Shown here in pieces: positions 24,518 through 37,645 of a DNA stretch of 64,000 nucleotides (the stretch's first letter is position 1; each line of letters opens with the position of its first letter). The stretch covers positions 69,165 through 133,164 of the forward strand of contig JAGVXH010000004.1 of the NCBI GenBank assembly GCA_018303845.1. Reading direction: 5' to 3'. The notes below the pieces were generated by a model that was not told the DNA's origin, searched no databases, and worked only from the letters and a program-made list of their open reading frames with translations. Made by a program: the position numbers and the translations under genes. This DNA is from Candidatus Pacearchaeota archaeon. GTDB lineage: Archaea; Nanobdellota; Nanobdellia; Pacearchaeales; GW2011-AR1.

Positions 24518-24519
24518 AC

Positions 24520-25002
24520 CTAAACTCCACAAATCCTGAGTCTAACAATCAAACTCTTCCCCCCAGAAACAATTGATCTTTGTGCCCCATTTGATACCCC
24601 AGTGCAATTCCCCTCACTCCATTTCAAAATCCCTTCACCATCTTTAACAAAAAACTCCGCGTTCCAACTATCAACCGAAGCATCGCTTAAAATCATAGAA
24701 CCAACAACATCTTTCAGACTCTGATTCAAATAATCACAAGCAGATATCCCCAAATTACTACAGCTATTTCCCTTAAAGCAACTCTTAAACAAATCCTCAA
24801 ACCTATCATAATCAGGCTCATAAACAATCGCGCACCCAGTTGTCGTCCTCATCACAACATCGAGCATATTAGAAACGCCAACGCTATCTTCACTTCCCTT
24901 ATCGTCTCGAACCGAAATAATCAAAAAAACCATCAACGCCACCATTACCAAGACCACAATCAAAACAAACCCAACAATCTCCTGTTGCCCTTTCCTATCC
25001 AT
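24520..25002 (-). CDS. Archaeal type IV pilin-like protein (class III signal peptide, +1 Gln)
   Basis: The N-terminus MDRKGQQEIVGFVLIVVLVMVALMVFLII combines a KGQ motif with a hydrophobic helix. Confidence 0.6.
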   Translation of the reverse strand: MDRKGQQEIVGFVLIVVLVMVALMVFLIISVRDDKGSEDSVGVSNMLDVVMRTTTGCAIVYEPDYDRFEDLFKSCFKGNSCSNLGISACDYLNQSLKDVVGSMILSDASVDSWNAEFFVKDGEGILKWSEGNCTGVSNGAQRSIVSGGKSLIVRLRICGV

Positions 25003-25020
25003 CTTGGGCCTCCGTCTTCT

Positions 25021-25473
25021 TCATCCCAACAACAATCTTCCCAATCTCGCACTTATCATAAACACTCCCAAATTCTTTAACTCGTTGACAAATAGAAACA
25101 TAAGACGATAATAATTACAATCCGCAGCGGGGCACTTAACAATCGATTCAAATGCTGGATAAACCTTATAAATTTCTAGGGACGCAATCGGCCAAAATCC
25201 ACCCATGGAATTTCCAAAACCTCCACTCAAAATCCGAAGCTTATCCTCATCGACAGTCATAGAATCTCGAGCATTATAACTTAATTCAGTCATGGCAGCA
25301 ATATTAGCTAAAGAAGAAATGGCCTGTTCTCTATTCAATTCCTCCGCCCCACTTTTAACATCCCTAAATGTAATTGCCAAAAAAAACAACCCAACCAAAA
25401 TAAAAAAAAAGAACACACCAATAATCATAAATGCCATCTGTATAATCTTCATTTGCCCCCGACCAGCTACCAT
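25021..25473 (-). CDS. Archaeal type IV pilin-like protein
   Basis: N-terminus MVAGRGQMKIIQMAFMIIGVFFFFILVGLFFL. Confidence 0.55.
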   Translation of the reverse strand: MVAGRGQMKIIQMAFMIIGVFFFFILVGLFFLAITFRDVKSGAEELNREQAISSLANIAAMTELSYNARDSMTVDEDKLRILSGGFGNSMGGFWPIASLEIYKVYPAFESIVKCPAADCNYYRLMFLFVNELKNLGVFMISARLGRLLLG

Positions 25474-25523
25474 TTAGAACCCTCCCGTAAATTTAAATTA
25501 AAAATAGCAAAGTTGCATGGTCT

Positions 25524-25583
25524 CCCCAAACCCCCAAACCCCCAAACCCCCAAACCCCGAGTAAAAAAACAAAGTTTTTTTAC
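25524..25583 (-). repeat. (C5A3)n array (25524-25558) plus 10-bp A/T palindrome enclosing the stop of the 313-aa gene (25561-25583)
   Basis: Plus strand reads ccccaaa(cccccaaa)x3cccc, then GTAAAAAAAC-AAA-GTTTTTTTAC. Confidence 0.85.
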
Positions 25584-26521
25584 CATACCCCGCAAACCTC
25601 CCTATCATTCTTCCTTTTCAAATCATCCCCAAATCCCTTAAGCGAAATCAAATCCTCGCTAGTAGCACTACTAACCATTCCGCCCCAAATAAGTAAGTCC
25701 CCTTTCATATTCGTCCCACAATCCCGAGCATCCATCAAATCAGCCTTTTCACTAAAAACCTCAGCAATCTGCCTAGTCCGATACATTAACCTTTTAACAT
25801 TACAATCATAAACAGCCTTATCACTAACAATCGCCCCATACATCAAACTTCCAACATACCGCAAATCTCCAGACGGCTTAGAAACAACCCCCTCATCATA
25901 AACCGAATCACATCCCTTGGAACACGAACCATAAACAATCGCATCGCAGTCAACTCCACCTCCAAAACAAATCCTTTCACTGCCAGAACTACAATTTTCA
26001 AAAACAATATTTTCAATACCTAGTCCCAAGATTTCATTCTTCACAACATCTGGAGCATTCAAAAAACAATATCTTCCACTCATCAAAAAAATCAAATCAC
26101 TAACTTCATAAGGAAACTCAAACGGCTTAGAAAACACATAATAATCAAAACCCTGGTTGTCCTGTTCGGAAAAGATATACTTATTACGAACCGAACTTTT
26201 TCCTCCAGCCAAATTCCAATCACTTCCAATGCCACTTCGAGTCGCAATAGAAATATCATTTTGCCCAAATTTCCCGTCATCTAAACAAATATTATTCAAT
26301 CGCGTCTCCTGCTGAAAAATAATTTTTCCAAACTTCCCTTCGCCAAATCCAGCATGCATCGGGTCAGTCAAAATAGAAACACTTAGTGCCGCCGCCGTAT
26401 CACTCCCATATCTCAAAGTATCCCCTGTCTGAACCGCCCCCCAAATCGCCAAAGCAAGAATAGTCCCACCAGCAAGAATAGCAAAAATCCAAACAAAATC
26501 AAACTGCCCTCTTTTCATCAA
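25580..26521 (-). CDS. Archaeal type IV pilin-like protein (large, 313 aa)
   Basis: N-terminus MMKRGQFDFVWIFAILAGGTILALAIWG, followed by a Cys-containing globular domain. Confidence 0.55.
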   Translation of the reverse strand: MMKRGQFDFVWIFAILAGGTILALAIWGAVQTGDTLRYGSDTAAALSVSILTDPMHAGFGEGKFGKIIFQQETRLNNICLDDGKFGQNDISIATRSGIGSDWNLAGGKSSVRNKYIFSEQDNQGFDYYVFSKPFEFPYEVSDLIFLMSGRYCFLNAPDVVKNEILGLGIENIVFENCSSGSERICFGGGVDCDAIVYGSCSKGCDSVYDEGVVSKPSGDLRYVGSLMYGAIVSDKAVYDCNVKRLMYRTRQIAEVFSEKADLMDARDCGTNMKGDLLIWGGMVSSATSEDLISLKGFGDDLKRKNDREVCGVW

Positions 26522-26549
26522 AACTCAAAGCCATAACAAATTTATAAAA

Positions 26550-27041
26550 CTACTCAATCCAAACAAGCCTATCATAAAACCCCTTCCTAATCTTCAGTCC
26601 AGCATCAACATCAACACAATAAGGGTTCTTTGTTCTAGTAATCTTCGTCACATTAATCCTATCAATATTCTTCCATTGCATCCCCTCAGCTTTTTCAGGA
26701 GGAATCAAAAAAGTATTTGCATCATAAACATCATAGTTCCTAATTGCATCATAATCCGCCCCAGTGTTAGTTATCCTCGCAGACAAATTAGCAAAACAAA
26801 TTCTCGTAATATCTCCAGGCAAACTAACTTCAAAATCCCGGTCGCTCTCTTGTCCCCGAACAGCATCATTAACAGCCTTCTGCAAATCCTCATAAAATAT
26901 TCCAATACTAGCACCCTCACCTAAATCAACAAAACTCTTAACTGCAATAAAAGCAATTACAACAAAAACAATAATTAAAAAAATAGCAAATATCATTCCA
27001 AAAGACATCCCTACCGCCTCCTGTCCTTTCTTGCTCACCAT
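26550..27041 (-). CDS. Archaeal type IV pilin-like protein
   Basis: N-terminus MVSKKGQEAVGMSFGMIFAIFLIIVFVVIAFIAV. Confidence 0.6.
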   Translation of the reverse strand: MVSKKGQEAVGMSFGMIFAIFLIIVFVVIAFIAVKSFVDLGEGASIGIFYEDLQKAVNDAVRGQESDRDFEVSLPGDITRICFANLSARITNTGADYDAIRNYDVYDANTFLIPPEKAEGMQWKNIDRINVTKITRTKNPYCVDVDAGLKIRKGFYDRLVWIE

Positions 27042-27060
27042 AAAAAATAAAGCCTCTTAC

Positions 27061-27072
27061 ATTTTATAAAAC
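27061..27072 (-). promoter_or_regulatory. TATA-like box for the four-gene pilin-like unit
   Basis: attttataaaac lies about 25 nt upstream of the ATG at 27041. Confidence 0.45.
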
Positions 27073-27148
27073 CTTCACTTAGCATTCTGCCTCTAAAACG
27101 AAGCCTTTCCAACAAAGTTGAGCCTTTCCACCTCACGTGAGCTTTGCG

Positions 27149-27177
27149 CGGAAAATTTCCTTACAAGAAATTTTCCG
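27149..27177 (-). terminator. 11-bp perfect hairpin with the stop codon of the 727-aa gene in its loop
   Basis: CGGAAAATTTC-cttacaa-GAAATTTTCCG; the tta at 27161-27163 is the stop codon. Confidence 0.5.
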
Positions 27178-29344
27178 TCGGCCTAATAATCATTGAACAT
27201 CCAGCCTCTTCATTCAAAAATTCATCCCGACATTTAATATAATAAGTATTCTTATTACTCCATTCCGCAACATGAACAGTCGTGTTCCCATAAGGCATCT
27301 CGGTCCCTTCAACAAAACTAAAGTCACAGTCATCTAAAGAATAACTACATTCACTATCCCGAATGGTTACAATCTTAAGCATACCACCTTCTTCATAAGC
27401 TCTAGCAATAACTGGTGCATCCGTATCAATATCAACCTCAAACTTTACAACATCCTTAACCAAATTCCCGCCTTCATCAACACACTTCACATAATAATTA
27501 TGCGTTCCTTCTACCAAGTCCAATCTCTGCGTGTGAATCCCATCTTCTTTATTCGTATCAAAGAACTGGATATAACCTTTGTCATCACTAGACCATTCAC
27601 AAACAGCCAGCCCATTATTACAGCCAAAATAAGTCTCAACGTAAAGCTCAATCGGAGCAGGACTAACTCCTCCAAACACCGTTCCATTAGGTTTCATATT
27701 CTTCAAAACAAGACCAGTGCTTCCCCTCAAACTAAACTCAAAACTCTGTGTCATCTCATTCCTGTCCTTCTCTTCCTTCCCTGGTTGATCCTTGCATCTC
27801 ACAAAATAACTAGCCCCGTCTCTCGGAATTCCAGTAAGCGTTCCCTTGCAAGCAAACAACTGCGCCGCATTAGCCTGATTGTAATTAGCGGCACAACTCA
27901 TAGAATTCTCCATTAAATCATAATCCTGATTTTGAAAACTCCACTTACAACTCGCAGGTTCATTCACATAAAATATAACTTCACTCTTGTCAATATTTTC
28001 AGCAACACAACCACCATTTGTAATCGAAGTAGCTTCAACTTTCGGAGGCGTCGTGTCAGGACTCGGGTCAACACAAAACTTTACAGCATATTCAGCCTCG
28101 TTAGTATTCCCATTCTTATCTTGGCATCTCAAATAAAACATCATATCCTTTCCATTCGTCAAAACAAAACCACTTCCTTGCAACTCACTAGCACCTGGCA
28201 AACTAAACGACTCACTATGGTTATAAGAATACAAATTACTCCCACCAAAATAAGCACTCATCTCATCATATGTCGTAGTATGGTTAAAATCAATCTTACA
28301 CTGTGCCGGCTCGTCAACGGTTATCCCAAATTCCAACGGACTAAATGCTTTCAAACAACCGTCTTTTGAAGCCACATTAACAATCTCAAATCCAGGCCCA
28401 GGCGGACTAGTCTTAACATTCTTGTAGCTATGTCCCTTCGTAAGTTCATCATAGTTCGGCTTAATAATAGGAGGATTAACATCCCGTGGATTAACATAGA
28501 CACATTTCTCTTCAATGGTTCCTTCGTTTACAATCTCACAACTTTGACCTAGCGATTTACATCTGTATTCAGAACAAGGAAGCGTCGCGTCGTTACAAGC
28601 CTCACAATTATCCCCACCAGTCGGAGCCTGCCACGGCATACAATTAAAAGTCACAATCTTTGTCTCACTAGTCTTATACATCATAACAAAAACTAGTGCC
28701 CCAATACCAAGTCCAGCCAAAGCAGGATTCGCTCCAAGCCAAGAAAGCTGTCCACCCGAAGCAAATATACCACCAGCTTCCGAACCAGCACCACTCATAT
28801 ACGTACTCAATATTTTATATGTTCCAAGTCCAGCAGCTAAACTCGTCCCTAATGCCTTTGAATTTCCCTCGCTCATTCCAAACATATTTCCAAGCATCGT
28901 CCCAGCAATATATGCAATCACCGCCCATTGCACACCAGAAGCAAGAGCACTAGCCCCACTTCCAGGAGTCATTTTAAATAAACCAGAAGCATAAGAATCA
29001 GGATGAGCACCAATCTCTCCCGTATATTCAAACATGCCCTTCGCCCCCAATCCACTACCGGTAGTTGGAGTATTAAGTCCAAAATTCGATTTACCTATCC
29101 AACTATCATAATCAGAAGAAGTATCTTTCATGATTTCCCATATCCCCTCCGAATTCACAATTTTAGTCGGCTCCCCCTCAACCATTAACAAATCTCCAGG
29201 TACACCATTTATAGCAGTCCCTTCATCAAGAAAAACAGCCCCACTAGCCACCCCCATCATAAAACAAATCCCAACAAATCCAAAAACCAACAACCAAACC
29301 TGCAACCCCGCCATTCCTTTCTTCCCAAAATCACCTACTCTCAT
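27161..29344 (-). CDS. Giant surface protein, C-terminal-half type: signal anchor, glycine-zipper membrane segment, Cys-rich module and four Ig-like repeats
   Basis: It is homologous to residues of about 600-1273 of the 1273-aa protein (DSWIGKSNFGLNTP vs ESWIAKLSIFATP; CMPWQAPTGGDNCEACND vs CKPWQAPVGGNDCEECND). Four repeats share the pattern C(K/E/S)(I/W/Y)..., Y(Y/F)(L/V/I)(R/K)C.D..GN. Confidence 0.6.
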   Translation of the reverse strand: MRVGDFGKKGMAGLQVWLLVFGFVGICFMMGVASGAVFLDEGTAINGVPGDLLMVEGEPTKIVNSEGIWEIMKDTSSDYDSWIGKSNFGLNTPTTGSGLGAKGMFEYTGEIGAHPDSYASGLFKMTPGSGASALASGVQWAVIAYIAGTMLGNMFGMSEGNSKALGTSLAAGLGTYKILSTYMSGAGSEAGGIFASGGQLSWLGANPALAGLGIGALVFVMMYKTSETKIVTFNCMPWQAPTGGDNCEACNDATLPCSEYRCKSLGQSCEIVNEGTIEEKCVYVNPRDVNPPIIKPNYDELTKGHSYKNVKTSPPGPGFEIVNVASKDGCLKAFSPLEFGITVDEPAQCKIDFNHTTTYDEMSAYFGGSNLYSYNHSESFSLPGASELQGSGFVLTNGKDMMFYLRCQDKNGNTNEAEYAVKFCVDPSPDTTPPKVEATSITNGGCVAENIDKSEVIFYVNEPASCKWSFQNQDYDLMENSMSCAANYNQANAAQLFACKGTLTGIPRDGASYFVRCKDQPGKEEKDRNEMTQSFEFSLRGSTGLVLKNMKPNGTVFGGVSPAPIELYVETYFGCNNGLAVCEWSSDDKGYIQFFDTNKEDGIHTQRLDLVEGTHNYYVKCVDEGGNLVKDVVKFEVDIDTDAPVIARAYEEGGMLKIVTIRDSECSYSLDDCDFSFVEGTEMPYGNTTVHVAEWSNKNTYYIKCRDEFLNEEAGCSMIIRPTENFL

Positions 29345-29694
29345 ATTAAATCCCCCTTCCCCAACTCGTTTTTTAATTTCCTAAAAACTTTTTTTAAGGA
29401 CGGCAACTCCCTAACTGCTTCCGCGTAAAGCCTCTGGCTATTGGTTAGGCTATAAGCATGAACGAGAAAATGCCGGTTATCGACCAGCCCCTTCCAATTA
29501 ATTTCCTTATTTTTTAATTTTGTCTCTTTAGATATTTTAGCGGCGTTCTCCCCTATCTCTTCAAATCTCTTACTGACAGCATCGACCAAAAGAGAATTCT
29601 TCCTAAAGTCATCTAAGCTCACTCCACTCAGGTACTTTTCAATAAGAAGAATAGACTTCAATATATTATCAACATAAATCAAATCTCTTTTCAT
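29341..29694 (-). CDS. HEPN domain protein (DUF86-type toxin of the HEPN-MNT pair)
   Basis: The R-x4-H motif is present in LVDNRHFLVHAY. It has ATGA overlaps with both neighbours. Confidence 0.75.
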   Translation of the reverse strand: MKRDLIYVDNILKSILLIEKYLSGVSLDDFRKNSLLVDAVSKRFEEIGENAAKISKETKLKNKEINWKGLVDNRHFLVHAYSLTNSQRLYAEAVRELPSLKKVFRKLKNELGKGDLI

Positions 29695-29981
29695 ATTATT
29701 CTCACCTCTTCGTCTAAAACCTGTTTTCTAATCAAAGGATGGATGCAACCATATTCTACCAAATCAACCTTTCTTTTCAAATACCCCTCAATCATCCCTT
29801 TGATCCCAACTAATTCACTCAAGCTCAAATCACTATCTACCTCAATTAAAATATCTACATCACTTCCACGCCTCTCCGCGCTCTTGGAATAACTTCCAAA
29901 TAAGCCAATTTTCTTTACCCCAGATTTCTCCAACATTTTCTGTTTACTACGAATTATCTCAATTATGTTTTTTCTATTCAT
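29691..29981 (-). CDS. Minimal nucleotidyltransferase (MNT antitoxin of the HEPN-MNT pair)
   Basis: The GLFGSYSKSAERRGSDVDILIE pol-beta NTase motif (GS...DxD). Confidence 0.75.
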   Translation of the reverse strand: MNRKNIIEIIRSKQKMLEKSGVKKIGLFGSYSKSAERRGSDVDILIEVDSDLSLSELVGIKGMIEGYLKRKVDLVEYGCIHPLIRKQVLDEEVRII

Positions 29982-31774
29982 TGTAACCTCCTCTTCGCCC
30001 CGTCAACCACCCACTTATATCCATCATCCGTATAAGCCCCGTCATAATTAACAGCTCCACCACAATCTCCAAGAGCAGTACAAACACCATTGGCACTCTC
30101 AGCCCAAGCGTCCTCCATGCATTCAGCCCCCTCAACAATCTTACTTCCTCCAATCAACCCCTTCTCATAAACAACAACACACTTCGCATTCGCCTGCCCA
30201 CAAATCTGCTTAGCACTTCCCTCTTCCCAAAACTTTAAACCAGGAGAAAAATTCGGAACACAAATTCCATCAGGTCGGTTAGTAGTAGTCGTAGGAGCTA
30301 CCTCTTCGGCTTTATCATCCCCTCCAAAAATAGAGTTCCCAGTTATCGGTGCAACAACACTTCCAGTAGGATTCGTAAAAGCAGGAGTATTTGTTGTAGT
30401 AGGATTCGTAAAAGTAGAAGCACTCGCACTAGGATTGGAATAAGTTGCAGAATCACTTTGAGTTGCCCCTCCCAAAACCATCCCTAAAACCGAAGGCATC
30501 CACTTACAATCTCGCCTATCAATATTCAAACAATCATCCTTATCAGTTTGCATAACGCACTCCTGCCACCGATTAACTCGACAAGCCGCAGTCCCAAACT
30601 TTCCACCAGTCGTATCAATTGACCCCTCCAAACAAACCTCATTCCTATAATCCGCACAAGGCTCAACCCGAACTTCCCCATCCGAACAAACTTCCCGATA
30701 ATATCTCGCCCCAGGCGCAATTTCCAAACTACCAGGCCCCCCAACCCCCGAACCACCCATGGAAGCACCGCTTCCAGCGACACACCAAGACTCCCCATTA
30801 ATCCGCTTGTCTCCATCTCTATCAACACATTCAGTCTTCTGACAATAATTGTCGCTCCCAGAAGGTCCCCCGATCAAACCCTCAAACTCCGAGCACCGAG
30901 TTCCAAGCATATAATCACAATTCCCACAATTCATATTACTTCCATCATTTGCCTTACAAACCTCATCACTTTCCAAAACTCGCCCCCTATTCCAACTCTT
31001 CACCTTATCACTTGAATAAACATTTTCCAAATTTCCACAAGAGTCAACCCAAAAAACATCACCCCCAGAACAAGTCGTACTCGTCTGCTTAGCACAAGAA
31101 GTCCCAAGCTCTTCAGCCGAACAAAGATAGTCCTTGTAAAAAGTTTTATCACTACTAATACTAAGATTGGTCTGATTCAAAATTTCAACCTTCTCACTAG
31201 CCCCACATTCTCCCCTTGTCGTAAATTCACAAAGTCTTTCAAACTCTTTCTCATAAACACAAGCCCCTTTGTCTTGTGCCTGAGCCTCAGCAATACAATC
31301 AACCTCATTTGTAACATCAGTCCTATAATCATTTTCAACACCAAACAAACTCGATAATCTCTTACATCTAACTAAAGAAACAAACGCAGCTTGGTCCGCA
31401 ATTACACAACATCCCAACTGACACTGTGGTACCTCATCAGGTTCTCTTGGGTCCCAAGTCCCACCATTATCATTACAAACCCTCTGCGGCGTATTTCCCA
31501 TACAAATTCCTTCACCAGAATCATAACAAGTTCCAAGTCGACAATACGAAGTAGTCTGGCAAGAAGTCGGAGCAGAATTATAACCAGCAGCACAAGCCGA
31601 TTGTTTATCATTAACACACCAAGCCCCGCCAGTAGTTTTCTCGCAACAATAACTTACTTCACTAGTAGCTGCCATCCCAAACCCTATAAGTAAAATAACA
31701 AAGCTGAGCAAGCATCCAAACCCCCAAACCCCCAAACCCCCAAACCCCCATTTATGAAAATTTTCAATTTTCAT
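29978..31774 (-). CDS. Giant surface protein, N-terminal-half type: G-repeat-encoded leader, signal peptide and Cys-rich ectodomain
   Basis: It is homologous to residues of about 70-595 of the 1273-aa protein (VFWVDSCGNLENVYSS vs VYFVDSCGNVGNIYDSS; INGESWCV vs DNGESWCV; VEPCADYRNEVC vs IEPCADYRNQIC; LGDCGGAVNY vs LGDCGGSVNI). Confidence 0.6.
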   Translation of the reverse strand: MKIENFHKWGFGGLGVWGFGCLLSFVILLIGFGMAATSEVSYCCEKTTGGAWCVNDKQSACAAGYNSAPTSCQTTSYCRLGTCYDSGEGICMGNTPQRVCNDNGGTWDPREPDEVPQCQLGCCVIADQAAFVSLVRCKRLSSLFGVENDYRTDVTNEVDCIAEAQAQDKGACVYEKEFERLCEFTTRGECGASEKVEILNQTNLSISSDKTFYKDYLCSAEELGTSCAKQTSTTCSGGDVFWVDSCGNLENVYSSDKVKSWNRGRVLESDEVCKANDGSNMNCGNCDYMLGTRCSEFEGLIGGPSGSDNYCQKTECVDRDGDKRINGESWCVAGSGASMGGSGVGGPGSLEIAPGARYYREVCSDGEVRVEPCADYRNEVCLEGSIDTTGGKFGTAACRVNRWQECVMQTDKDDCLNIDRRDCKWMPSVLGMVLGGATQSDSATYSNPSASASTFTNPTTTNTPAFTNPTGSVVAPITGNSIFGGDDKAEEVAPTTTTNRPDGICVPNFSPGLKFWEEGSAKQICGQANAKCVVVYEKGLIGGSKIVEGAECMEDAWAESANGVCTALGDCGGAVNYDGAYTDDGYKWVVDGAKRRLQ

Positions 31775-31777
31775 AAA
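31716..31777 (-). repeat. (C5A3)4 array (31716-31749) plus 12-bp perfect palindrome (31751-31777) enclosing the TGA/ATG junction
   Basis: TTTATGAAAATT-ttc-AATTTTCATAAA. The array lies inside the 598-aa ORF and encodes WGFGGLGVWGFG. Confidence 0.85.
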
Positions 31778-32520
31778 TCATATCCCGCCGGGAACACTAA
31801 ACTCCGACTCGCAAATTTAAATTTATCACCAAACACTTTATTCTCCAAAACATAAACCGTAGTCCCTTCGCCCCTCTTTGTCTTCTCGATATAATAATCA
31901 GGATAATAAAGCATCATGGCTGAAACATCGCTATCCCCATACTTAGTCTCAAACTGCAAAATAGAAGTCGCAATCATCACAGTTTCATAAGCCGGAGAGT
32001 TAACCTTAACATTAAACCGAGCAAATCTGCTAGTCCCAACCGAAGTCGGAGCATCAATTTCTAGTCGAACAACTCCAGGCTCAATTTCTACATTATAATT
32101 AACCGCGCCACTAACAACTTCATATCCCTGATCCTTCAAAGAATTCAAACTAGCCTCATAACAAGCATCAACCTCTTCCCGAATCAAAACCTCCAGATTC
32201 TCATCAAACACATTCTTCAAAAACGGAACCTGTACAGTACAAGTCTCATAAAAATTATTAGTATAACAAAGATAAGTCAACTCCTCACCCTGATAAGTAT
32301 AGGTGAAATCAGCATCAATAAAACCAGCCTTTCCCTCAAGTTCACTAATCCCATTTTCCATCGCATCGGCAACACAGCCTTCAAATCCCTTTACCCCACT
32401 ACCTTCACTCAAAAATGTCGGTCTAGCCCAAAGAAAAAAAATCAAAATAGCCGAAACTATTAAAATCCCAATCAAAATAAAAATCGTAACCTGCCCCTTT
32501 TTCTCCATCAAATTCTTCAT
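31771..32520 (-). CDS. Archaeal type IV pilin-like protein (paralogue of 36881-37645)
   Basis: MKNLMEKKGQVTIFILIGILIVSAILIFFLW. The C-terminus FKFASRSLVFPAGYDL compares with FKFAVRSCAFAPGI in the paralogue. The ATG at 32520 lies 25 nt downstream of TATA-like atttataaaa (32541-32550). Confidence 0.6.
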   Translation of the reverse strand: MKNLMEKKGQVTIFILIGILIVSAILIFFLWARPTFLSEGSGVKGFEGCVADAMENGISELEGKAGFIDADFTYTYQGEELTYLCYTNNFYETCTVQVPFLKNVFDENLEVLIREEVDACYEASLNSLKDQGYEVVSGAVNYNVEIEPGVVRLEIDAPTSVGTSRFARFNVKVNSPAYETVMIATSILQFETKYGDSDVSAMMLYYPDYYIEKTKRGEGTTVYVLENKVFGDKFKFASRSLVFPAGYDL

Positions 32521-32540
32521 GTCAGTCCAAGCCTTTCCAT

Positions 32541-32550
32541 ATTTATAAAA
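32541..32550 (-). promoter_or_regulatory. Internal TATA-like box between the giant gene and the pilin-like gene
   Basis: Reads TTTTATAAAT on the gene strand, about 25 nt upstream of the ATG at 32520. Confidence 0.4.
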
Positions 32551-32557
32551 TCTCTCA

Positions 32558-35500
32558 TCATATAGCAACTATTTCCGCCAAACATCTGCTCGGCAAATTT
32601 CCATATTTATCTTCACACTGAATAAAATATTTTTTCCCATAATCAACCGAAAACGAAAGTGCATCCCCCTCTCCAATACTAACTCCATCTTCCCAATCAA
32701 ATTTACAGCCAGTAAAAGAATACCGACATTCTCCAGCTCCATTCAAAAGTAAATTCATTCTTCCCTGTTCTTCCCATATCCTAGTAATCGTAATAATAGA
32801 ACTAATTCCCTCTTCCCCTTCCTCTTCCCCTTCCTCTTCCCCCCCTTGCACATTAAAGTCCCCCTGAACAACTCGGAATTCAGTCAAACCACGAGCAACG
32901 TCTCCATTTTCATCGGAACATTCAACATAAATTTTCTTCGCCCCAGTTCCAACATTCAAAGTCTGAACATGTGTCCGCGCATCCCCAGTTTCAAACATTT
33001 CAATCATACTTCCATAACCACTAAACGAATAAGAACAAAAATGATTTACCCCTCCGCCACTAGTCGCAACTTTCAAATCGATAGTCGTAAAATCAGTATT
33101 AATTTCAATGATATTATCTGGTTTAATCTTGTCAATTGAAATCTTCGAACTAGGTTTTACCAAATTAAAAACAAAACTTTGCGCATTCGCATTTCGTTTA
33201 CTCGTATCATTTTCCCAAGGTTGGTCCATACATCTAACATAATAATTATTACTAGAATTCCCGATTGCAAAAACCCCATTGCAAACATATCCCAAAGCAT
33301 TAGACGGCGCACCCAAGGAATCCCCACACACCATATCATTTCCCATTTCGGAATAATCAACATCCCGCAAATCCCATTTACAAGTCGCAAGTTCATTTGT
33401 CACAATCATCACATCTTTACTCGTCACATCAAAACCAACATTTCCTATTCCTTCACTCGCAACAATTTTAGGCGCAGTAACATCTTCACCTTCAATAACA
33501 CAAGTTTTAATCTCATAAATTCCAGGACTCTCCAGCCCATATCTGTCCCGACATTTAACATACAAACTTAAATCTCCAGTCCAATTCGAACCTTGACTTT
33601 GTCCATGACTAGGGTCAGGCAAATTAAAAACAGCAGTATGATTATACAAATAGCTATTCCCACCTAAACTAAAAACCATGTCATCAAAATCTTTCACGGC
33701 AACATCAAACTTACATTGTGCAGGTTCACTTGTAACAATCCCAATCGGCAATGGGGTATAGGCCAGAACACAACCACCCCTATCATTGACAATACTAAAT
33801 CCATTTTCCCCATCCTCATAGTCTCCACCTTCAAAGTCAATCCCAGTCTGTCGATGAATAATCGGAGGCGTCGCATCCCCAGGATTCCCATCTACACAAA
33901 GTTCATCCCCGCTTCCTTCATTAATCAACTCACATCCCGCCCCCAAACTCTCGCATCTATATCTCGAACAAGGCTTCAACGGATCATCATTGCACTCCTC
34001 ACAATCATTCCCTCCAACTGGAGCCTGCCATGGCTTACACTCAAAATCAACTTCAATTGGTGGGCATTTGCTTCTCCCGAAGAATAAAGAAATAACGATT
34101 AAAGCAACTCCAACCCAAAACAGAGGAGTCGCAAGCATTACAGTCATAGTAGGACTTAGCATATAAGCCGCTCCAATCGCCGCTCCACCAAGTCCCATCA
34201 ACATACTACCTCCTTCACTAAGCCCCAAATATTGCCCCAGCATTTGACCAACAACAAATCCAATTCCAGCACCAATCATTGCTCCAGAATAAGGCCCAAT
34301 AACTTTTATGAAACTTTCCGGAAGAATCTTGTCGAAAGGAATAAAATTACGAGCCATTGAAAAAATTGCTCCTTTCATATCTGGGTTAGCAGCTCCAATC
34401 GCTAGACCAAGTCCAGCAACACCAACTCCTATACTAGTGAAATCAAAACTCTTTTCTTCTTCCCCGCCAACCGTAGGCGTAACCGCCCCGCCCCAGACGC
34501 CAGCAGCCGCCAAATACTCTGAATAGTCTTCAACTTCAGCAAACTGTCCAGGAACCGGAGTGGCAAATATAGACAATTTCGCAATCCAACTCTCACTTAA
34601 GCCCGGGGAATTTCGAATAATATAATTCCCAGACCATTCCCCAACAATATTAACCGAACCACCGCAATCCCCAAGTCCTCGACAAAAATCATTCATTTCC
34701 TGTCCAAATGTTTCACTTAAACAATTTTGATTCGCAACATATCTACATCCACCCCATTTCTTCGAAGCTCGAACAACAGTACAAGTCTGACTTGCCATTC
34801 CACAAAGTCTCTCTGCAGTAGTTTGGTATCTAGCATCATTTAAAGCAAAGCCTCCAGGATACTTTGGCAAACAAACATCAAATGTAAACTTGTCAGCAAT
34901 TGCAACTTTTTCAACTCGACAATTCAAAGTCGCACTACACTTGTCAACCATTCGCACTTTCTTGTCACTAGCACAATCACTAGCCGCCAAATTAAGACAA
35001 TTTATTTTATCGGCATTACTAGGATAAAGAGTATAATTCCCACAAAGTTTAGTCCGACTCTCAGTACACGCTTTTTTCTCAGCTTCAGTCCGAACCTCAT
35101 CAGCATCCTCACTATTCAAGTTAATACATTCTCGCCAATTATTCGCAATACAAGCAGCATTGTCAAATTCAACCTTCTTCCCATCAACTTCAAATTCTTT
35201 TGACTGAACACAAATTTGATTTCGATAATCGGCACAGGGCTCTATCTGCACAACTCCTTGAGAACAAACATACTTCCAATGCCGACTCCCAACAACATCG
35301 TTCCCATTCCCAATCGCCCCGTCGTAAACACACCAAGATTCTCCATTATCGTATTTCACCCCATCAAACATACAACTCGTATCCCGACAATAAAAACTTC
35401 CAACCTCAACCTTGAAATTATCCTCACTAGCAGAAGCGCAAATTCCACCAGCGAACCTATTGCAATTCCCACAACTAGGGCTATCCCCATTCCCTTCTCC

Positions 35501-36379
35501 TGCCCCACAAGAATCATTGTACTGAACAACAGAGTCCCAATAGCTCACATCCTCAACCCTAGAAGAATCATAAATATTCCCAACATTCCCGCATGAGTCA
35601 ACAAAATAAACCCCATCTTTCCCATCGACACATTTCGTCTGCTTAGTCATCTTGCAACTTGTATTAAGGGAAGGATTAGTGCAAAGAGATCCTTCAGCGA
35701 AATCTCCCCCGTAAGAAAAACATTCAGCTTCACTCACGAATTTACATTCTCCTTCCCTGATAACACAAGCCCCCTCTTTTTGTTCAGCAGCTAAAAACAG
35801 ACAAGCCCCCTCATCAACCCCAGTTCTCCAATCAACAATATCATCGTCCCCCATTGCGAAAACCAAACTATCAACCTCACATTGTCCTTCTGTCTCAAAA
35901 ATAGTTTTACTCCCCAAAACACAACATCCAAGTCGAGCCCCGGGCAAATTACAATTCGGATCCTTAACCCATTTTGCAGGACAAGCAAATTTCAAAACAT
36001 TCTTATCATAAGTTCCACTCTTGTCATCATAACAACAACCTTTCTCACAAAATGAAGTCGCAGCACAAAGCGCACCCTCGGCAAATGGCGAATCACTTAT
36101 GCAATTCTCCGGACTCGTAGTCCCACAAACTTGCCCTTCATTACTAGCAAAACAACATCCAGCACCTTCACTATTCATTGAAATAGGGTAATTCTTCCAT
36201 GTCTGATTTTCAGTCAATTTTCCACCCCCCATTTTATCAAGAAAATCCTTAATGGTCATCTTCTCTTTTTCTGCCCCAGAAACTAAACTAACTTCTTCAA
36301 ACCCAACAAAATAACAAAACGAAAAAAGCATCCCAATCATCAAAATCATCTCAAATCCAGCAGTAATTTTCCTATTCAT
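32558..36379 (-). CDS. Giant (1273 aa) Cys-rich surface protein: signal peptide, Cys-rich ectodomain, glycine-zipper membrane segment, Cys-rich module and four Ig-like repeats
   Basis: Uninterrupted ORF colinear with the 598-aa and 727-aa proteins. The central segment GAMIGAGIGFVVGQMLGQYLGLSEGGSMLMGLGGAAIGAAYML is followed by LFWVGVALIVISLFF. Confidence 0.65.
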   Translation of the reverse strand: MNRKITAGFEMILMIGMLFSFCYFVGFEEVSLVSGAEKEKMTIKDFLDKMGGGKLTENQTWKNYPISMNSEGAGCCFASNEGQVCGTTSPENCISDSPFAEGALCAATSFCEKGCCYDDKSGTYDKNVLKFACPAKWVKDPNCNLPGARLGCCVLGSKTIFETEGQCEVDSLVFAMGDDDIVDWRTGVDEGACLFLAAEQKEGACVIREGECKFVSEAECFSYGGDFAEGSLCTNPSLNTSCKMTKQTKCVDGKDGVYFVDSCGNVGNIYDSSRVEDVSYWDSVVQYNDSCGAGEGNGDSPSCGNCNRFAGGICASASEDNFKVEVGSFYCRDTSCMFDGVKYDNGESWCVYDGAIGNGNDVVGSRHWKYVCSQGVVQIEPCADYRNQICVQSKEFEVDGKKVEFDNAACIANNWRECINLNSEDADEVRTEAEKKACTESRTKLCGNYTLYPSNADKINCLNLAASDCASDKKVRMVDKCSATLNCRVEKVAIADKFTFDVCLPKYPGGFALNDARYQTTAERLCGMASQTCTVVRASKKWGGCRYVANQNCLSETFGQEMNDFCRGLGDCGGSVNIVGEWSGNYIIRNSPGLSESWIAKLSIFATPVPGQFAEVEDYSEYLAAAGVWGGAVTPTVGGEEEKSFDFTSIGVGVAGLGLAIGAANPDMKGAIFSMARNFIPFDKILPESFIKVIGPYSGAMIGAGIGFVVGQMLGQYLGLSEGGSMLMGLGGAAIGAAYMLSPTMTVMLATPLFWVGVALIVISLFFGRSKCPPIEVDFECKPWQAPVGGNDCEECNDDPLKPCSRYRCESLGAGCELINEGSGDELCVDGNPGDATPPIIHRQTGIDFEGGDYEDGENGFSIVNDRGGCVLAYTPLPIGIVTSEPAQCKFDVAVKDFDDMVFSLGGNSYLYNHTAVFNLPDPSHGQSQGSNWTGDLSLYVKCRDRYGLESPGIYEIKTCVIEGEDVTAPKIVASEGIGNVGFDVTSKDVMIVTNELATCKWDLRDVDYSEMGNDMVCGDSLGAPSNALGYVCNGVFAIGNSSNNYYVRCMDQPWENDTSKRNANAQSFVFNLVKPSSKISIDKIKPDNIIEINTDFTTIDLKVATSGGGVNHFCSYSFSGYGSMIEMFETGDARTHVQTLNVGTGAKKIYVECSDENGDVARGLTEFRVVQGDFNVQGGEEEGEEEGEEGISSIITITRIWEEQGRMNLLLNGAGECRYSFTGCKFDWEDGVSIGEGDALSFSVDYGKKYFIQCEDKYGNLPSRCLAEIVAI

Positions 36380-36735
36380 TTCCTTTCCTCTAAATATTTA
36401 ATATAAGCCCAAATCTTCTTACTAGCTTCATCAAGCTTCTTCATAACCAAATCAAATTTCATTTCATCAACATACTCAATATCCGAAGAAATATAAAATT
36501 GTGTTTCTAACTCCCGAACACTTCCAAGAGAAATTCTCAAAAACTGAACAAATTCTTTCACCGAATCTCTTCCACATCCTTCCGCAATATTAGAAGGAAT
36601 GCTAACCGCAGCTCTTCTCATTTGAGAGGTAATCCCATAAAGCTCATCCTTAGGAAATCCCTTAGTAATAATATAAACTTCTTTAGCAACTTCTCTTCCG
36701 ATATTCCAAATCTGAAGTTTCCTATAATCTCTCAT
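36376..36735 (-). CDS. Four-helix-bundle protein of the 23S rRNA-intervening-sequence / Avd family
   Basis: YKKLxVW-like N-terminus (YRKLQIWNIGREVAKEVY), SQMRRAAVSIPSNIAEGCGR and GSVRELETQ motifs. ATGA overlaps at both ends. Confidence 0.75.
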   Translation of the reverse strand: MRDYRKLQIWNIGREVAKEVYIITKGFPKDELYGITSQMRRAAVSIPSNIAEGCGRDSVKEFVQFLRISLGSVRELETQFYISSDIEYVDEMKFDLVMKKLDEASKKIWAYIKYLEERK

Positions 36736-36884
36736 ACATATCTCCTAGCATAGTTGCTCAACCCGGGCGAAGCCCTAACCAAACCCCCAAACCCCCAAAC
36801 CCCCAAACCTCCGCGAAGCAAGGACCTAACCAAACCCCCAAACCCCCAAACCCCCAAACCCCCATGAAAATTTCTAATTTTCAT
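36732..36884 (-). CDS. 50-aa leader ORF encoded by two G-repeat arrays (MKIRNFHGGLGVWGFGGLVRSLLRGGLGVWGFGGLVRASPGLSNYARRYV)
   Basis: Hand-translated. Its ATG overlaps the stop of the 254-aa gene (tcat at 36881-36884), and its TGA overlaps the Avd-family ATG (tcat at 36732-36735). Its N-terminus MKI(R/E)NFH matches the start of the 598-aa protein. Confidence 0.4.
   Translation of the reverse strand: MKIRNFHGGLGVWGFGGLVRSLLRGGLGVWGFGGLVRASPGLSNYARRYV
36776..36884 (-). repeat. Two (C5A3)n arrays (36779-36809 and 36831-36863), each preceded by a GCGAAGC-type mini-hairpin, plus a 9-bp palindrome (36864-36884)
   Basis: Sequence reads ctaaccaaa(cccccaaa)x3cc...gcgaagcaaggacctaaccaaa(cccccaaa)x3ccccc, then ATGAAAATT-tct-AATTTTCAT. 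Confidence 0.85.
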
Positions 36885-37645
36885 ATCCCAGGTGCAAAAG
36901 CACAACTCCTCACAGCAAATTTAAATTCATCTCCACTTCGTCGGTCAATTACTCGATACATCTTCGAATCCCGATAATCAACCCGCCTAATATCATACTC
37001 CGGATAAAGCAACATATATCCATTATACTCAAAATAACAAAATTGCGACTCACTATTAACAATTTCTCGAGTCACCCGAACCAAATTATAAATAGGCGAA
37101 ACAACCTCTAAACTAAAATCATTAAAACTCTTAGCTCCAGACTCACTAGAAATTTCAATATCCTTCTTCAAAGAAACCTTGACATAGCCAGGCAATAAAT
37201 CAACAGAATATTCAGTCGCCCCACCTTTAACATCATAGCCTCTATTCTCAAAATCTTCTCTCATCGAATTAAAACAACTCTGTACGCCAACACTAGTGTC
37301 CCTTTCAATTTCACTCTCAATTTGCAACTCAAGCATCGGATGAATATTATAACATCCCTGATAAAAATCCGCCTGATAACACAAATAGCCCCACTCATTA
37401 CCCTGATATGAAATAGCCTGCGAAGGCAAAATCTCCCCTCCATTCTCAAGCATCTTGTCAACAGAATCCCTAACAACATCTCCAACACATCCAGCAATAA
37501 AATCCCTAGGCCCCAAATCGCTTGGTCGAACGGCCTCTCCTCCACGGTTCATCAAATAAATCAAGCCCAAAATAACAACAACAATCATAATCGCAACTAT
37601 GATAAATATCGTTACCTGCGCTCTTTTCCCATTTTTCTCTCCCAT
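36881..37645 (-). CDS. Archaeal type IV pilin-like protein (paralogue of 31771-32520)
   Basis: N-terminus MGEKNGKRAQVTIFIIVAIMIVVVILGLIYL. Confidence 0.6.
   Translation of the reverse strand: MGEKNGKRAQVTIFIIVAIMIVVVILGLIYLMNRGGEAVRPSDLGPRDFIAGCVGDVVRDSVDKMLENGGEILPSQAISYQGNEWGYLCYQADFYQGCYNIHPMLELQIESEIERDTSVGVQSCFNSMREDFENRGYDVKGGATEYSVDLLPGYVKVSLKKDIEISSESGAKSFNDFSLEVVSPIYNLVRVTREIVNSESQFCYFEYNGYMLLYPEYDIRRVDYRDSKMYRVIDRRSGDEFKFAVRSCAFAPGI

What the first reader, a model, noticed from the sequence alone, without database searches (positions are those of the whole stretch)
31716..31777. A palindrome covering the stop and start codons, followed by a (G5T3)4 G-quadruplex motif inside the 598-aa ORF: a possible phase-variation or translational switch
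On the gene strand, TTTATGAAAATT-GAA-AATTTTCATAAA is a 12-bp perfect inverted repeat. It contains both the TGA of the pilin-like gene and the ATG of the 598-aa gene.

Four G5 tracts separated by T3 follow immediately. They are translated as WGFGGLGVWGFG, ahead of the hydrophobic signal core.

Four G5 runs with 3-nt loops are a canonical intramolecular G4 former.

The repeat unit is 8 nt, so gain or loss of one unit shifts the reading frame and would switch the 598-aa protein off. That would also affect the genes translationally coupled downstream. This is how contingency loci behave in bacteria.

The same composite motif recurs at two other junctions in this locus.
Basis: partly seen in the sequence, partly recalled or inferred. 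Interest (0 to 1): 0.7.

Follow-up and report, generated by a model that had tools for sequence, protein, structure and literature searches.

The report
Hairpin plus G-quadruplex gene-junction insert
The motif is real, but rather than an on/off repeat switch it is one copy of an apparently undescribed family of short inserts (a hairpin over the stop/start codons plus a four-unit G-rich array) that sit between translationally coupled genes in Pacearchaeota and are always kept readable by the ribosome.

Summary
On the minus strand, a 13-bp perfect hairpin (31750-31778) contains the TGA of the pilin-like gene and the ATG of the 598-aa ORF. It is followed by (G5T3)4GG (31716-31749). The arrays are the only canonical G4 motifs in 64 kb (G4Hunter 2.56). 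They recur at 36.8 kb (two copies) and 25.5 kb.

Relatives carry the same architecture with different repeat units (G4T3C, G5TGT, 16-17-nt units), always about four units long. It also occurs at unrelated operon junctions. Orthologues with the element are polyphyletic, and most orthologues have a plain signal peptide instead.

In every case an ORF starts in the hairpin. It is either fused in frame to the next gene (this site) or is a 25-67-aa relay ORF whose stop overlaps or lies within a few nucleotides of the next start codon. Hairpin arms covary, and the stems extend into the local last codon.

Repeat number is invariant in eight assemblies of this strain and in related genomes, so phase variation is not supported.

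Best reading: a dispersed structured insert that preserves termination-reinitiation coupling and probably throttles it. A purely selfish element cannot be excluded.

The parts
31750..31778 (-). 13-bp perfect hairpin with a 3-nt loop (ATTTATGAAAATT-GAA-AATTTTCATAAAT). It encloses the TGA of the 265-aa gene and the ATG of the 598-aa ORF.
   Evidence: RNA fold -9.3 kcal/mol, z = -4.3 against shuffles.
31716..31749 (-). (G5T3)4GG array of 34 nt, G-rich on the sense strand, translated as WGFGGLGVWGFG.
   Evidence: G4Hunter 2.56 and a predicted five-layer G4.
29978..31774 (-). 598-aa cysteine-rich secreted protein. Residues 1 to about 20 are the translated element, fused in frame to an otherwise ordinary signal peptide (CLLSFVILLIGFGMA/ATSE).
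31771..32568 (-). Upstream pilin-like gene with a class III signal-peptide-like N-terminus (MKNLMEKKGQVTIFILIG). The likely true start is the ATG at 32520 (249 aa).
   Evidence: No Pfam hit.
36864..36884 (-). Site 3 hairpin core, ATGAAAATT-AGA-AATTTTCAT, over the TGA of the 254-aa pilin-like gene.
36830..36863 (-). Site 3a array, (G5T3)4GG.
36779..36812 (-). Site 3b array, GGAGGTTT(G5T3)3GG. It is a tandem second copy 51 nt downstream of 3a.
36759..36778 (-). 3' GC-hairpin module TTAGGGCTTCGCCCGGGTTG. It is shared with elements in L029, L030, L032, L078 and L165, and encoded as LVRASPGL in related sORFs.
36732..36884 (-). 50-aa relay ORF. Its ATG overlaps the upstream TGA (ATGA), and its TGA overlaps the ATG of the IVP gene (ATGA).
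   Evidence: Called as a gene in other assemblies. Homologous sORFs P0125-P0129.
25561..25583 (-). Site 1 hairpin, GTAAAAAAAC-TTT-GTTTTTTTAC, enclosing the TAA of the 313-aa gene.
25524..25558 (-). Site 1 array, G4T3(G5T3)3G4.
25467..25586 (-). 39-aa relay ORF. Its start overlaps the upstream stop (ATGGTAA), and its stop overlaps the ATG of the next pilin-like gene (ATGGTAG).
   Evidence: Called as a 39-aa gene in L035 and L040.

Best explanation
The motif is one copy of a dispersed family of short structured inserts found in Pacearchaeota and related DPANN archaea. Each insert has three parts: (i) an AT-rich hairpin whose left arm is the stop/start overlap of two co-directional genes; (ii) a tandem array about 34 nt long with four G-tracts on the sense strand; (iii) often a small GC hairpin. 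These inserts lodge at junctions where genes are translationally coupled by overlapping stop and start codons. Such coupling fails if about 20 nt of untranslated spacer is introduced, so only inserts that remain translated survive. At 31.7 kb the insert is fused in frame to the signal peptide of the 598-aa protein. At 36.8 kb and 25.5 kb it forms a short relay ORF that starts on the upstream stop and ends on the downstream start.

Proposed mechanism: in the mRNA the hairpin hides the stop/start overlap and the array folds into a very stable G-quadruplex. A ribosome finishing the pilin-like gene opens the hairpin, re-initiates at the AUG inside it, and must then unwind the quadruplex. Coupling is therefore kept but throttled, so the large cysteine-rich surface protein is made in lower amounts than the pilin-like protein.

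Shown: the family, its positions, the preserved reading frames, stem covariation, constant array length and high G4 propensity. Inferred: that the G4 folds in vivo, the throttling effect, and spread by transposition or recombination.
For: (1) The same architecture occurs with different repeat units in relatives. L030 has ATGAAAATT-TTT-AATTTTCAT followed by (G4T3C)4. L032 has (G5TGT)4, (G5TTN)4 and (G4CGTG3TGTATC)2. L101 has (G4ATATGCTTCGCAT)3G3. L033 has (G4T3C)3-4 and (G3CAAT)3. Arrays are always about 4 units long with 3-5 G-tracts.

(2) The element occurs at unrelated junctions: within a ribosomal-protein-like gene cluster (L101), after an RNA-polymerase-subunit-like gene (L078), between a putative ABC ATPase and permease (L134) and between two membrane-protein-like genes (L069) (these gene identities are my reading of the ORF translations and were not confirmed by a family search).

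(3) Relay ORFs: the ORF starting at the hairpin ATG ends in a TGA overlapping the downstream ATG in window site 3, L101, L134 and L078. It ends 5 nt before the downstream ATG in L069 and 9 nt past it in L032a. Site 1 runs from ATGGTAA to ATGGTAG. The ORF is fused in frame in window site 2, L029, L030, L032b, L033 and L165. The chance probability per relay ORF is about 0.02-0.03.

(4) The constraint acts on the nucleic acid and not the peptide. L032a combines a synonymous ATT>ATC change with a compensating AAT>GAT change (N>D). L165 and site 1 have different palindromes. L032b keeps the stem only through G.U pairs. Stems extend into the local last codon: 19 extra Watson-Crick pairs, against 6.1 +/- 2.5 with permuted flanks, P about 1e-4.

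(5) All hairpins fold better than shuffles, with z from -3.1 to -7.1. The arrays score G4Hunter 2.56, the highest in the window.

(6) Distribution is patchy. About 7 of 110 orthologues carry the element, and each has an element-free sister in the NJ tree. Empty junctions have a plain ATGA/TAATG overlap and a short signal peptide.

(7) Literature: termination-reinitiation at ATGA overlaps operates in archaea and is nearly abolished by about 20 nt of spacer (PMC6728339, PMC10666635).
Against: There is no expression, structure-probing or ribosome data, so G4 folding and any throttling are inferred. Ribosomes translating through the array would unfold it, so an RNA-level role may be transient. The first tract is degenerate in several arrays (GGAGG, GGTGG), and some family members (L078, L069, L029) lack a clean G4, so the G4 is not indispensable to the family. 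The strong genome-wide G excess on coding strands (69 versus 5 G5 runs) weakens strand bias as evidence. No transposase or reverse transcriptase was found in the window, and no terminal inverted repeats or target duplications were seen, so the mode of spread is unknown. In-frame cases at the 598 junction were found through their protein N-termini, which is an ascertainment bias. The unbiased evidence for frame preservation rests on six intercistronic cases.
Confidence: 0.55

Rival explanations
1. Purely selfish or neutral repeat element. The insert spreads by transposition, gene conversion or slippage, and is merely tolerated wherever it keeps the downstream gene translated. The G4 and the hairpin would serve its own propagation, or nothing at all, and not host gene regulation.
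For: Polyphyletic, patchy presence with element-free sister orthologues. It occurs at unrelated operon junctions. Several near-identical copies occur in one genome. Repeat units are lineage-specific and perfectly homogenised. Degenerate copies lack a G4 (L029, L078, L069). A precedent exists in Rickettsia palindromic elements, which are inserted in frame into genes (PMC10969869).
Against: Array length is held at about four units across lineages with different units, which suggests a constraint on structure. Stems are adapted to the local codon. There is no mobilising enzyme, terminal repeat or target duplication. None was found in viral contigs.
Confidence: 0.28
2. Phase-variable contingency locus. 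Slipped-strand gain or loss of an 8-nt unit would switch the 598-aa protein and the coupled downstream genes off and on.
For: The unit length is not a multiple of 3, and a change of one unit truncates the ORF after 32-34 codons. The repeats are perfect. Six contig ends fall within about 80 nt of the arrays in independent assemblies, which could reflect heterogeneity.
Against: Eight assemblies of this strain have the same unit number at every assembled array. The protein cluster holds no array-length variants; the 565-aa member is cut by a contig end and the 588-aa member differs elsewhere. The array-encoded stretch has the same length in 7 of 8 arrays from four other genomes. Arrays from many lineages all have about four units. 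Most copies lie in relay ORFs or at apparently housekeeping junctions. Contig breaks are also expected from four identical 34-nt repeats within 11 kb.
Confidence: 0.05
3. Transcriptional attenuator or mRNA-end element. The hairpin plus G4, each followed by U-runs, would pause or terminate RNA polymerase, or protect the upstream pilin-like mRNA from 3' exonucleases. This would give more pilin-like transcript than downstream transcript.
For: It lies directly after abundant-type structural genes (pilin-like genes here; what looks like a ribosomal-protein gene in L101). Site 1 has a T7 run in its right arm, which is an archaeal oligo-T terminator-like signal. Each G5 is followed by T3. The G-rich strand is the non-template strand.
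Against: The strict preservation of an open frame through the element, and of stop/start overlaps at both ends, is unnecessary for a terminator and implies read-through translation. Sites 2 and 3 have only T3-T4 runs. The downstream genes have no promoters of their own in the 0-nt gaps.
Confidence: 0.09
4. DNA-level recombination signal, as with the Neisseria pilE G4. A cruciform plus G4 would trigger breaks and gene conversion between the paralogous pilin-like/large-protein cassettes, driving surface variation.
For: The locus holds two paralogous cassettes with the motif at both pilin-like/large-protein junctions. Small IVP and MNT/HepT genes are inserted at varying junctions in relatives. 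One internal segment of the 598-aa gene differs between strains.
Against: The paralogues are only 29-32% identical in protein sequence, far too diverged for homologous gene conversion. The element also sits at junctions that do not look like surface-protein genes. It lies inside the transcribed and translated operon, not upstream of a promoter.
Confidence: 0.03

Closest known systems
Rickettsia palindromic elements (RPEs) and other intragenic MITE-like repeats
   Same: Short, palindromic, multi-copy repeats that insert into coding regions in frame, are translated, and are tolerated by the host protein (PMC10969869). Their distribution among orthologues is patchy.
   Different: RPEs are about 150 bp, encode a conserved peptide, and insert inside unrelated genes. 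The element here is 60-150 nt, its peptide is not conserved, and it contains a tandem G-tract array. It sits specifically on stop/start overlaps, either as an N-terminal extension or as a separate relay ORF. No terminal inverted repeats or target duplications were seen. The host is an archaeon.
REP/BIME-type intercistronic palindromes of bacteria
   Same: Dispersed, structured repeats between genes of one operon that can modulate the relative expression of upstream and downstream genes.
   Different: REPs are extragenic and untranslated, have a conserved GTAG-type head, and are linked to RAYT transposases. This element is translated, has a G4 array, and has no RAYT nearby.
Translational coupling by termination-reinitiation at ATGA/TGATG overlaps (Huber et al., PMC6728339, PMC10666635)
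   Same: All junctions carrying the element are 4-nt or near overlaps. The whole operon in the window is a chain of ATGA overlaps.
   Different: Known coupled pairs overlap directly. Here a short structured relay ORF is interposed, overlapping at both ends. I did not find this arrangement described in my literature searches.
Regulatory RNA G-quadruplexes near start codons, and archaeal G4s
   Same: Four G-tracts with short loops on the sense strand close to an initiation codon. G4s are documented computationally and experimentally in archaea (PMC7565180, PMC12873603).
   Different: Those are single motifs in 5' leaders or genes. This is a perfect tandem array paired with a stop/start hairpin, multi-copy, in an AT-rich DPANN genome where no other G4 motif occurs in 64 kb.
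Neisseria pilE G4 / simple-sequence contingency loci
   Same: A G4 motif or a short tandem repeat associated with a pilus-type surface locus.
   Different: There are no near-identical silent donor copies, the position is not upstream of a promoter, and there is no repeat-number variation.

Membership tests
Canonical intramolecular G-quadruplex motif | Four or more runs of at least 3 G separated by loops of 1-7 nt | tested here: met
   Regex scan. G5 x4 with T3 loops at 31721-31749.
Canonical intramolecular G-quadruplex motif | High G4 propensity score | tested here: met
   G4Hunter 2.56 with a 25-nt window, the top score in the window. ViennaRNA with the G4 option gives -66.2 versus -23.9 kcal/mol.
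Canonical intramolecular G-quadruplex motif | Folding demonstrated (CD, ThT/NMM, K+ dependence, RT stop) | not testable with these tools
   Requires oligonucleotide experiments.
Simple-sequence contingency (phase-variation) locus | Repeat unit not divisible by 3 inside an ORF, so that a change of one unit shifts the frame | tested here: met
   8-nt unit. Plus or minus one unit gives a stop after 32-34 codons. This holds for site 2 only; the other arrays lie in short relay ORFs.
Simple-sequence contingency (phase-variation) locus | Repeat number varies between closely related strains or within populations | tested here: not met
   Eight assemblies are identical. No array-length variants in the protein cluster. 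Same length in related genomes. Read-level minority variants could not be examined.
Neisseria-type pilin G4 recombination system | Highly similar silent donor cassettes for gene conversion | tested here: not met
   Paralogues are 29-32% identical in protein sequence.
Neisseria-type pilin G4 recombination system | G4 located upstream of the expressed pilin gene, with its own sRNA promoter | tested here: not met
   The array lies downstream of the pilin-like gene, inside the translated operon.
MITE | Terminal inverted repeats at both ends and target-site duplication | tested here: not met
   The only inverted repeat is the hairpin at the 5' end. No flanking direct duplication appears in alignments of filled and empty junctions.
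RPE-like in-frame palindromic repeat | Multi-copy, palindromic, inserted so that the host reading frame is preserved | tested here: met
   Four arrays in the window. In-frame fusion or relay ORF in all 13 instances examined.
RPE-like in-frame palindromic repeat | Conserved encoded peptide / sequence homology to RPE families | tested here: not met
   Peptides are not conserved beyond MKI.NFH, which is forced by the palindrome. The host is archaeal and the sequence is unrelated.
REP/REPIN | Associated RAYT (IS200/IS605-like) transposase in the genome | tested here: inconclusive
   None among the window ORFs scanned with Pfam. The rest of the roughly 965-kb genome could not be searched.
Termination-reinitiation coupled gene pair | Stop and start codons overlap (ATGA, TGATG) or lie within a few nt | tested here: met
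   Both ends of the relay ORFs and the 265/598 junction meet this.
Termination-reinitiation coupled gene pair | Downstream translation depends on upstream translation | not testable with these tools
   Needs reporter assays of the kind in PMC10666635.
Archaeal intrinsic terminator | Oligo-T run of at least 5 on the sense strand | tested here: inconclusive
   Site 1 has T7. Sites 2 and 3 have only T3-T4.
Known RNA family (Rfam) | Match to a curated covariance model | tested here: not met
   No hit with E up to 1 in 24000-39000.

The most novel reading that the evidence does not exclude
DPANN archaea may carry a previously undescribed class of translated intercistronic 'relay' elements. Each would be a hairpin that cages the stop/start overlap, followed by a four-tract G-quadruplex array. 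These elements would target, or survive only at, translationally coupled junctions, and would use ribosome-unwound RNA G4s to set the stoichiometry of operon products. That would be the first natural case of G4-gated termination-reinitiation coupling, and of an element adapted to stop/start overlaps.
Probability: 0.3. Interest if true: 0.75.

Novelty: new variant of a known kind. Interest (0 to 1): 0.55.

Why it matters
If the reading is right, it gives a natural, compact system for asking how ribosomes deal with very stable RNA G-quadruplexes. It would also show how translational coupling can be relayed across an insert by a throw-away mini-ORF. It identifies a repeat family in DPANN archaea, whose genomes are usually thought to be nearly free of repeats.

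There are practical consequences too. Gene callers annotate these inserts as N-terminal extensions or as 30-67-aa 'hypothetical proteins'. The arrays also coincide with metagenome assembly breaks, so recognising them improves annotation and binning of Pacearchaeota genomes. Finally, it corrects an attractive but unsupported phase-variation story.

Tried and rejected
- **Exact (G5T3)3G5 in 185,579 representative genomes:** 28 scattered bacterial hits and no archaea. This gave no information on function.
- **Metagenome scan for the palindrome alone:** Only L069, L078, L101 and L134 were useful. A pattern that included a G-tract would have been a better use of the single scan.
- **Viral-contig scans for the 3' module and for right arm plus G-tracts:** only chance matches in unrelated, mostly GC-rich phages. 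There is no link to viruses.
- **Rfam:** no hit.
- **Short-N-terminus orthologues as possible frame-shifted 'OFF' alleles:** P0047 is an empty junction with a miscalled start, and P0025 is not on record.
- **P0122 (565 aa) as a repeat-number variant:** it is truncated by a contig end.
- **Link between the arrays and IVP (PF05635/bAvd-like) genes:** the flanks of IVP genes in L029, L032, L033 and L165 carry GC-rich hairpin-like repeats but no G4 arrays, so there is no strict association.
- **Homology of the DNA 3' of the array to the signal-peptide DNA of the 1273-aa paralogue in another frame:** orthologue comparison shows that the present frame is the conserved one, so I treat that similarity as chance.
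- **A functional micropeptide or a functional N-terminal extension:** rejected because the peptides are not conserved and the compensatory changes are non-synonymous.
- **Assembly artefact:** rejected because the arrays are identical in independent assemblies made by different pipelines.
Full report
**Observation.** The gene strand is the minus strand. It reads ...GGATATGATTT ATGAAAATTGAAAATTTTCATAAAT GGGGGTTTGGGGGTTTGGGGGTTTGGGGGTTTGG ATGCTTGC....

- The inverted repeat is 13 perfect base pairs with a 3-nt loop (31778..31750).
- It contains the TGA of the 265-aa gene (31773..31771) and the ATG of the 598-aa ORF (31774..31772).
- The array (G5T3)4GG occupies 31749..31716.
- The array pattern is far beyond chance: 13 overlapping matches against 0.01 expected.
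- Three of these arrays are the only canonical G4 motifs in 64 kb, all on the gene strand; the fourth (site 3b) has a degenerate first tract and is found by pattern search and TRF.
- The motif recurs at 36.8 kb, as a hairpin ATGAAAATT-AGA-AATTTTCAT followed by two arrays 51 nt apart. It also recurs at 25.5 kb, with a different hairpin GTAAAAAAAC-TTT-GTTTTTTTAC followed by an array.

**Context.**
- The window comes from a Candidatus Pacearchaeota archaeon. The 598-aa protein is 100% identical to J4226_03125, and the longest contig carrying it is 964,825 bp.
- GC content is about 38%, with a very strong G excess on coding strands.
- The locus lies next to an S-layer-like gene. It contains many proteins with class III signal-peptide-like N-termini (…KGQ/RGQ followed by a hydrophobic stretch).
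- It holds two paralogous cassettes. One runs 254-aa pilin-like gene, motif x2, a 119-aa PF05635 (23S rRNA IVP / Avd-like) gene, then a 1273-aa cysteine-rich protein. The other runs 265-aa pilin-like gene, motif, 598 aa, MNT/HepT toxin-antitoxin pair, then 727 aa.
- The 598-aa and 727-aa proteins match the N- and C-terminal halves of the 1273-aa protein, at 29% and 32% identity.
- Nearly all junctions in the operon are ATGA overlaps.
- The window ORFs scanned with Pfam include no transposase or reverse transcriptase.
- Rfam has no match.

**The element is a family.** The 598-aa family has more than 1,300 homologues.
- Most start with a short Sec-type signal peptide such as MNKLIFGFVFLLLVGFGMAATSE.
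- About 7 of 110 full-length orthologues instead begin MKI.NFH followed by a Gly/Phe/Val/Arg-rich stretch.
- Their DNA shows the same architecture with different repeat units. L030 has ATGAAAATT-TTT-AATTTTCAT followed by (GGGGTTTC)4 and GGAGGGCTGCGCCCGGGTTGG. L032 has (GGGGGTGT)4, (GGGGGTTN)4 and (GGGGCGTGGGTGTATC)2. L033 has (GGGGTTTC)3-4. L165 has a different palindrome (TCATTCAAAT/ATTTGAATGA) followed by G5T3G4T4G5T3GGAGGG. L029 is a degenerate copy.
- Empty orthologous junctions (L163, L164, L166) have a plain stop/start overlap and the short signal peptide.
- In an NJ tree of 72 orthologues, the seven element-bearing proteins fall in seven different places, each next to an element-free sister. 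The element has therefore been gained or lost repeatedly.

**Not specific to the pilus-like locus.** The palindrome-only metagenome scan was mostly noise, but it recovered the composite at four unrelated junctions. The gene identities given here are my reading of the ORF translations and were not confirmed by a family search.
- L101: within a ribosomal-protein-like gene cluster (possibly uS5/uL30), with (GGGGATATGCTTCGCAT)3GGG.
- L078: after a large RNA-polymerase-subunit-like gene (possibly rpoB), with a 13-bp stem, a non-G middle part and the GGGCTGCGCCCGGGTTGG module.
- L134: between a putative ABC ATPase and a putative permease.
- L069: between two membrane-protein-like genes, in the same genome as L032.

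Short ORFs homologous to the 50-aa ORF of site 3 exist in at least four other genomes (P0126-P0129). They share the module order MKI(R/K)(N/D)F(H/Q), GGLGVWGFGG, LVRASP(E/D/G)L.

**Key regularity: the element is always translatable.**
- In the intercistronic copies, the ORF beginning at the hairpin ATG (which overlaps the upstream stop) stays open through the array. It ends in a TGA overlapping the downstream ATG in window site 3 (50 aa), L101 (33 aa), L134 (31 aa) and L078 (33 aa).
- It ends 5 nt before the downstream ATG in L069, and 9 nt past it in L032a (67 aa).
- Site 1 has a 39-aa ORF running from ATGGTAA to ATGGTAG.
- The other two frames hit stops much earlier.
- Composition-preserving shuffles give about 0.02-0.03 per instance for such a bridge. 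These six cases were found through their DNA and not through protein calls, so they are unbiased with respect to frame.
- At seven other junctions, including the finding itself, the ORF is fused in frame to the downstream gene.
- This fits published work. In Haloferax, termination-reinitiation coupling at 4-nt overlaps is almost abolished by about 20 nt of untranslated spacer (PMC6728339, PMC10666635). A 75-150-nt insert can therefore preserve coupling only if it is itself an ORF overlapping at both ends.

**The constraint is on nucleic-acid structure, not on the peptide.**
- Peptides are not conserved beyond MKI.NFH, and the palindrome itself dictates that motif.
- L032a carries ATT>ATC (synonymous) with the compensating AAT>GAT (Asn>Asp).
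- L165 and site 1 have unrelated palindromes.
- L032b keeps the stem only through G.U pairs, which points to RNA.
- Stems extend beyond the shared core into the last codon of whatever gene lies upstream (TTA/TAA, CTA/TAG, ACGA/TCGT, CAT/ATG, AA/TT). This gives 19 extra pairs, against 6.1 +/- 2.5 with permuted flanks, P about 1e-4.
- All eight hairpins fold better than shuffles, with z from -3.1 to -7.1.
- Arrays differ in unit sequence between lineages but are consistently about four units long, about 34 nt, with 3-5 G-tracts. They score G4Hunter 2.56, and the predicted fold is a hairpin followed by a five-layer G4.
- Constant tract number with changing loops is what selection for an intramolecular quadruplex would give.
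- However, the first tract is often degenerate, and a few family members have no G4. The G4 is therefore a frequent feature of the family but not an obligatory one.

**Phase variation.**
- In principle one unit more or less truncates the 598-aa ORF.
- Eight independent assemblies of essentially this strain, from different samples and assemblers, carry identical arrays at all sites wherever they were assembled.
- The 90% cluster of the protein has no array-length variants. The 565-aa member is cut by a contig end, the 588-aa member differs in an internal segment, and one member has substitutions in the array but the same length.
- Related genomes keep the same array length.
- Six contig ends fall within about 80 nt of an array. 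That could hint at heterogeneity, but it is equally expected from four identical 34-nt repeats within 11 kb and from poor sequencing of G-runs.
- Consensus assemblies cannot exclude rare variants, so I give phase variation about 5%.

**Interpretation.** The best-supported statement is structural and evolutionary. This is one copy of a dispersed family of structured inserts that occupy translationally coupled junctions and are retained only in a translated form.

For mechanism I commit to a throttled-coupling model. The hairpin cages the stop/start overlap. The terminating ribosome opens it and re-initiates. The G4, which begins 26 nt downstream of the AUG, must then be unwound, and this lowers output of the downstream large surface protein relative to the pilin-like protein.

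That functional step is inferred. A purely selfish element, tolerated because it keeps coupling, is the main rival at about 0.28. Less likely are a transcriptional attenuator or mRNA-end element (about 0.09), a Neisseria-like recombination signal (about 0.03; the paralogues are only about 30% identical) and phase variation (about 0.05).

**Comparison with known systems.** The element works like several known things:
- in-frame palindromic repeats, namely the Rickettsia RPEs (PMC10969869);
- intercistronic REP-type palindromes;
- regulatory RNA G4s;
- ATGA termination-reinitiation coupling.

It is not a member of the MITE, RPE or REP families, because it lacks terminal repeats, a conserved peptide and an associated RAYT transposase. 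It also fails the defining tests for contingency loci and for the pilE G4 system. I found no description of hairpin-plus-G4 relay ORFs in the searched literature. G4s as such are documented in archaea (PMC7565180, PMC12873603). I therefore rate it a new variant of a known kind, of moderate interest.

Noticed in passing
window 27161-31774 (-) versus 32558-36379 (-): The 598-aa and 727-aa genes correspond to the N- and C-terminal halves of the 1273-aa paralogue (29% and 32% identity). An MNT (96 aa) / HepT (117 aa) toxin-antitoxin pair sits between them (29341-29981), and all four junctions are ATGA overlaps. The split form is the common one in relatives (orthologues of about 560-610 aa), but the toxin-antitoxin insertion is strain-specific.
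   Followed up: partly
window 36376-36735 (-); L029 4855-5220, L032 11833-12192, L033 4872-5229 and 12022-12387, L165 9224-9586: Small PF05635 (23S rRNA intervening-sequence protein / bAvd-like) genes sit at different intergenic positions of the same syntenic locus in different Pacearchaeota. One copy in L033 is fragmented. Their upstream flanks contain short GC-rich hairpin-like direct repeats. They behave like mobile mini-genes.
   Followed up: partly
window about 30700-30790 (-), inside the 598-aa gene: A strain variant (P0121, 588 aa) has VYDDGHGDGGDRVGSRYFREI where the window has VAGSGASMGGSGVGGPGSLEIAPGARYYREV. The variant resembles the orthologue consensus. The window's version coincides with a G-rich stretch (G4Hunter 2.16), so it may be a compensated double frameshift or a segment replacement.
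   Followed up: no
window 38980-39163 (-), in the 191-aa ORF at 38794-39369: A 96-nt tandem duplication (1.9 copies, 93% identity) encodes a repeated CGDGSCNNGETCSSCSGDCGACYVA module in a small cysteine-rich secreted protein.
   Followed up: no
window 38545-38700: A very AT-rich block of nested direct and inverted repeats (periods 6-24 nt; 43-nt arms, 74% complementary), lying within an ORF listed at 38364-38714 between the surface-protein operon and the cysteine-rich gene, close to the PCNA and primase genes. It may be a promoter or other regulatory region.
   Followed up: no
window 32809-32842: The repeat (CCTCTTCCCCTT)2.8 on the plus strand encodes a GGEEEGEEEGEEG acidic linker in the 1273-aa protein. 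G4Hunter gives 2.16 on the gene strand, but with GGA/GAA interruptions.
   Followed up: no
L036, L037, L038, L161, L162 (assemblies of the same strain): Six contig ends fall inside or within about 80 nt of the G-arrays, so the arrays act as metagenome assembly breakpoints.
   Followed up: partly
window 31692-31728 versus 36308-36344: There is 76% DNA identity over 37 nt between the region just 3' of the site-2 array and the signal-peptide DNA of the 1273-aa gene, but in a different reading frame (a 4-nt indel). I judged this to be coincidental, because orthologues support the present frame.
   Followed up: yes
L002, L007, L010, L015, L016, L019-L022 (Bacteroidota MAG KLAP56) and L005 (Gammaproteobacteria MAG): Exact (G5T3)n arrays occur on nine contigs of one Bacteroidota MAG, six of them within about 170 nt of the end of the fetched stretch. 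A run of 10 matches sits near the start of the stretch fetched from a 2.49-Mb Gammaproteobacteria chromosome. This could be a telomere-like feature, a repeat family, or contamination.
   Followed up: no
whole window: There is an unusually strong G-over-C excess on coding strands (GC skew of magnitude 0.3-0.48 in 2-kb windows where genes lie on the minus strand), with 69 versus 5 G5 runs between the two strands. A RuBisCO large-subunit gene (Pfam RuBisCO_large; form not determined) lies at 58808-60262.
   Followed up: no
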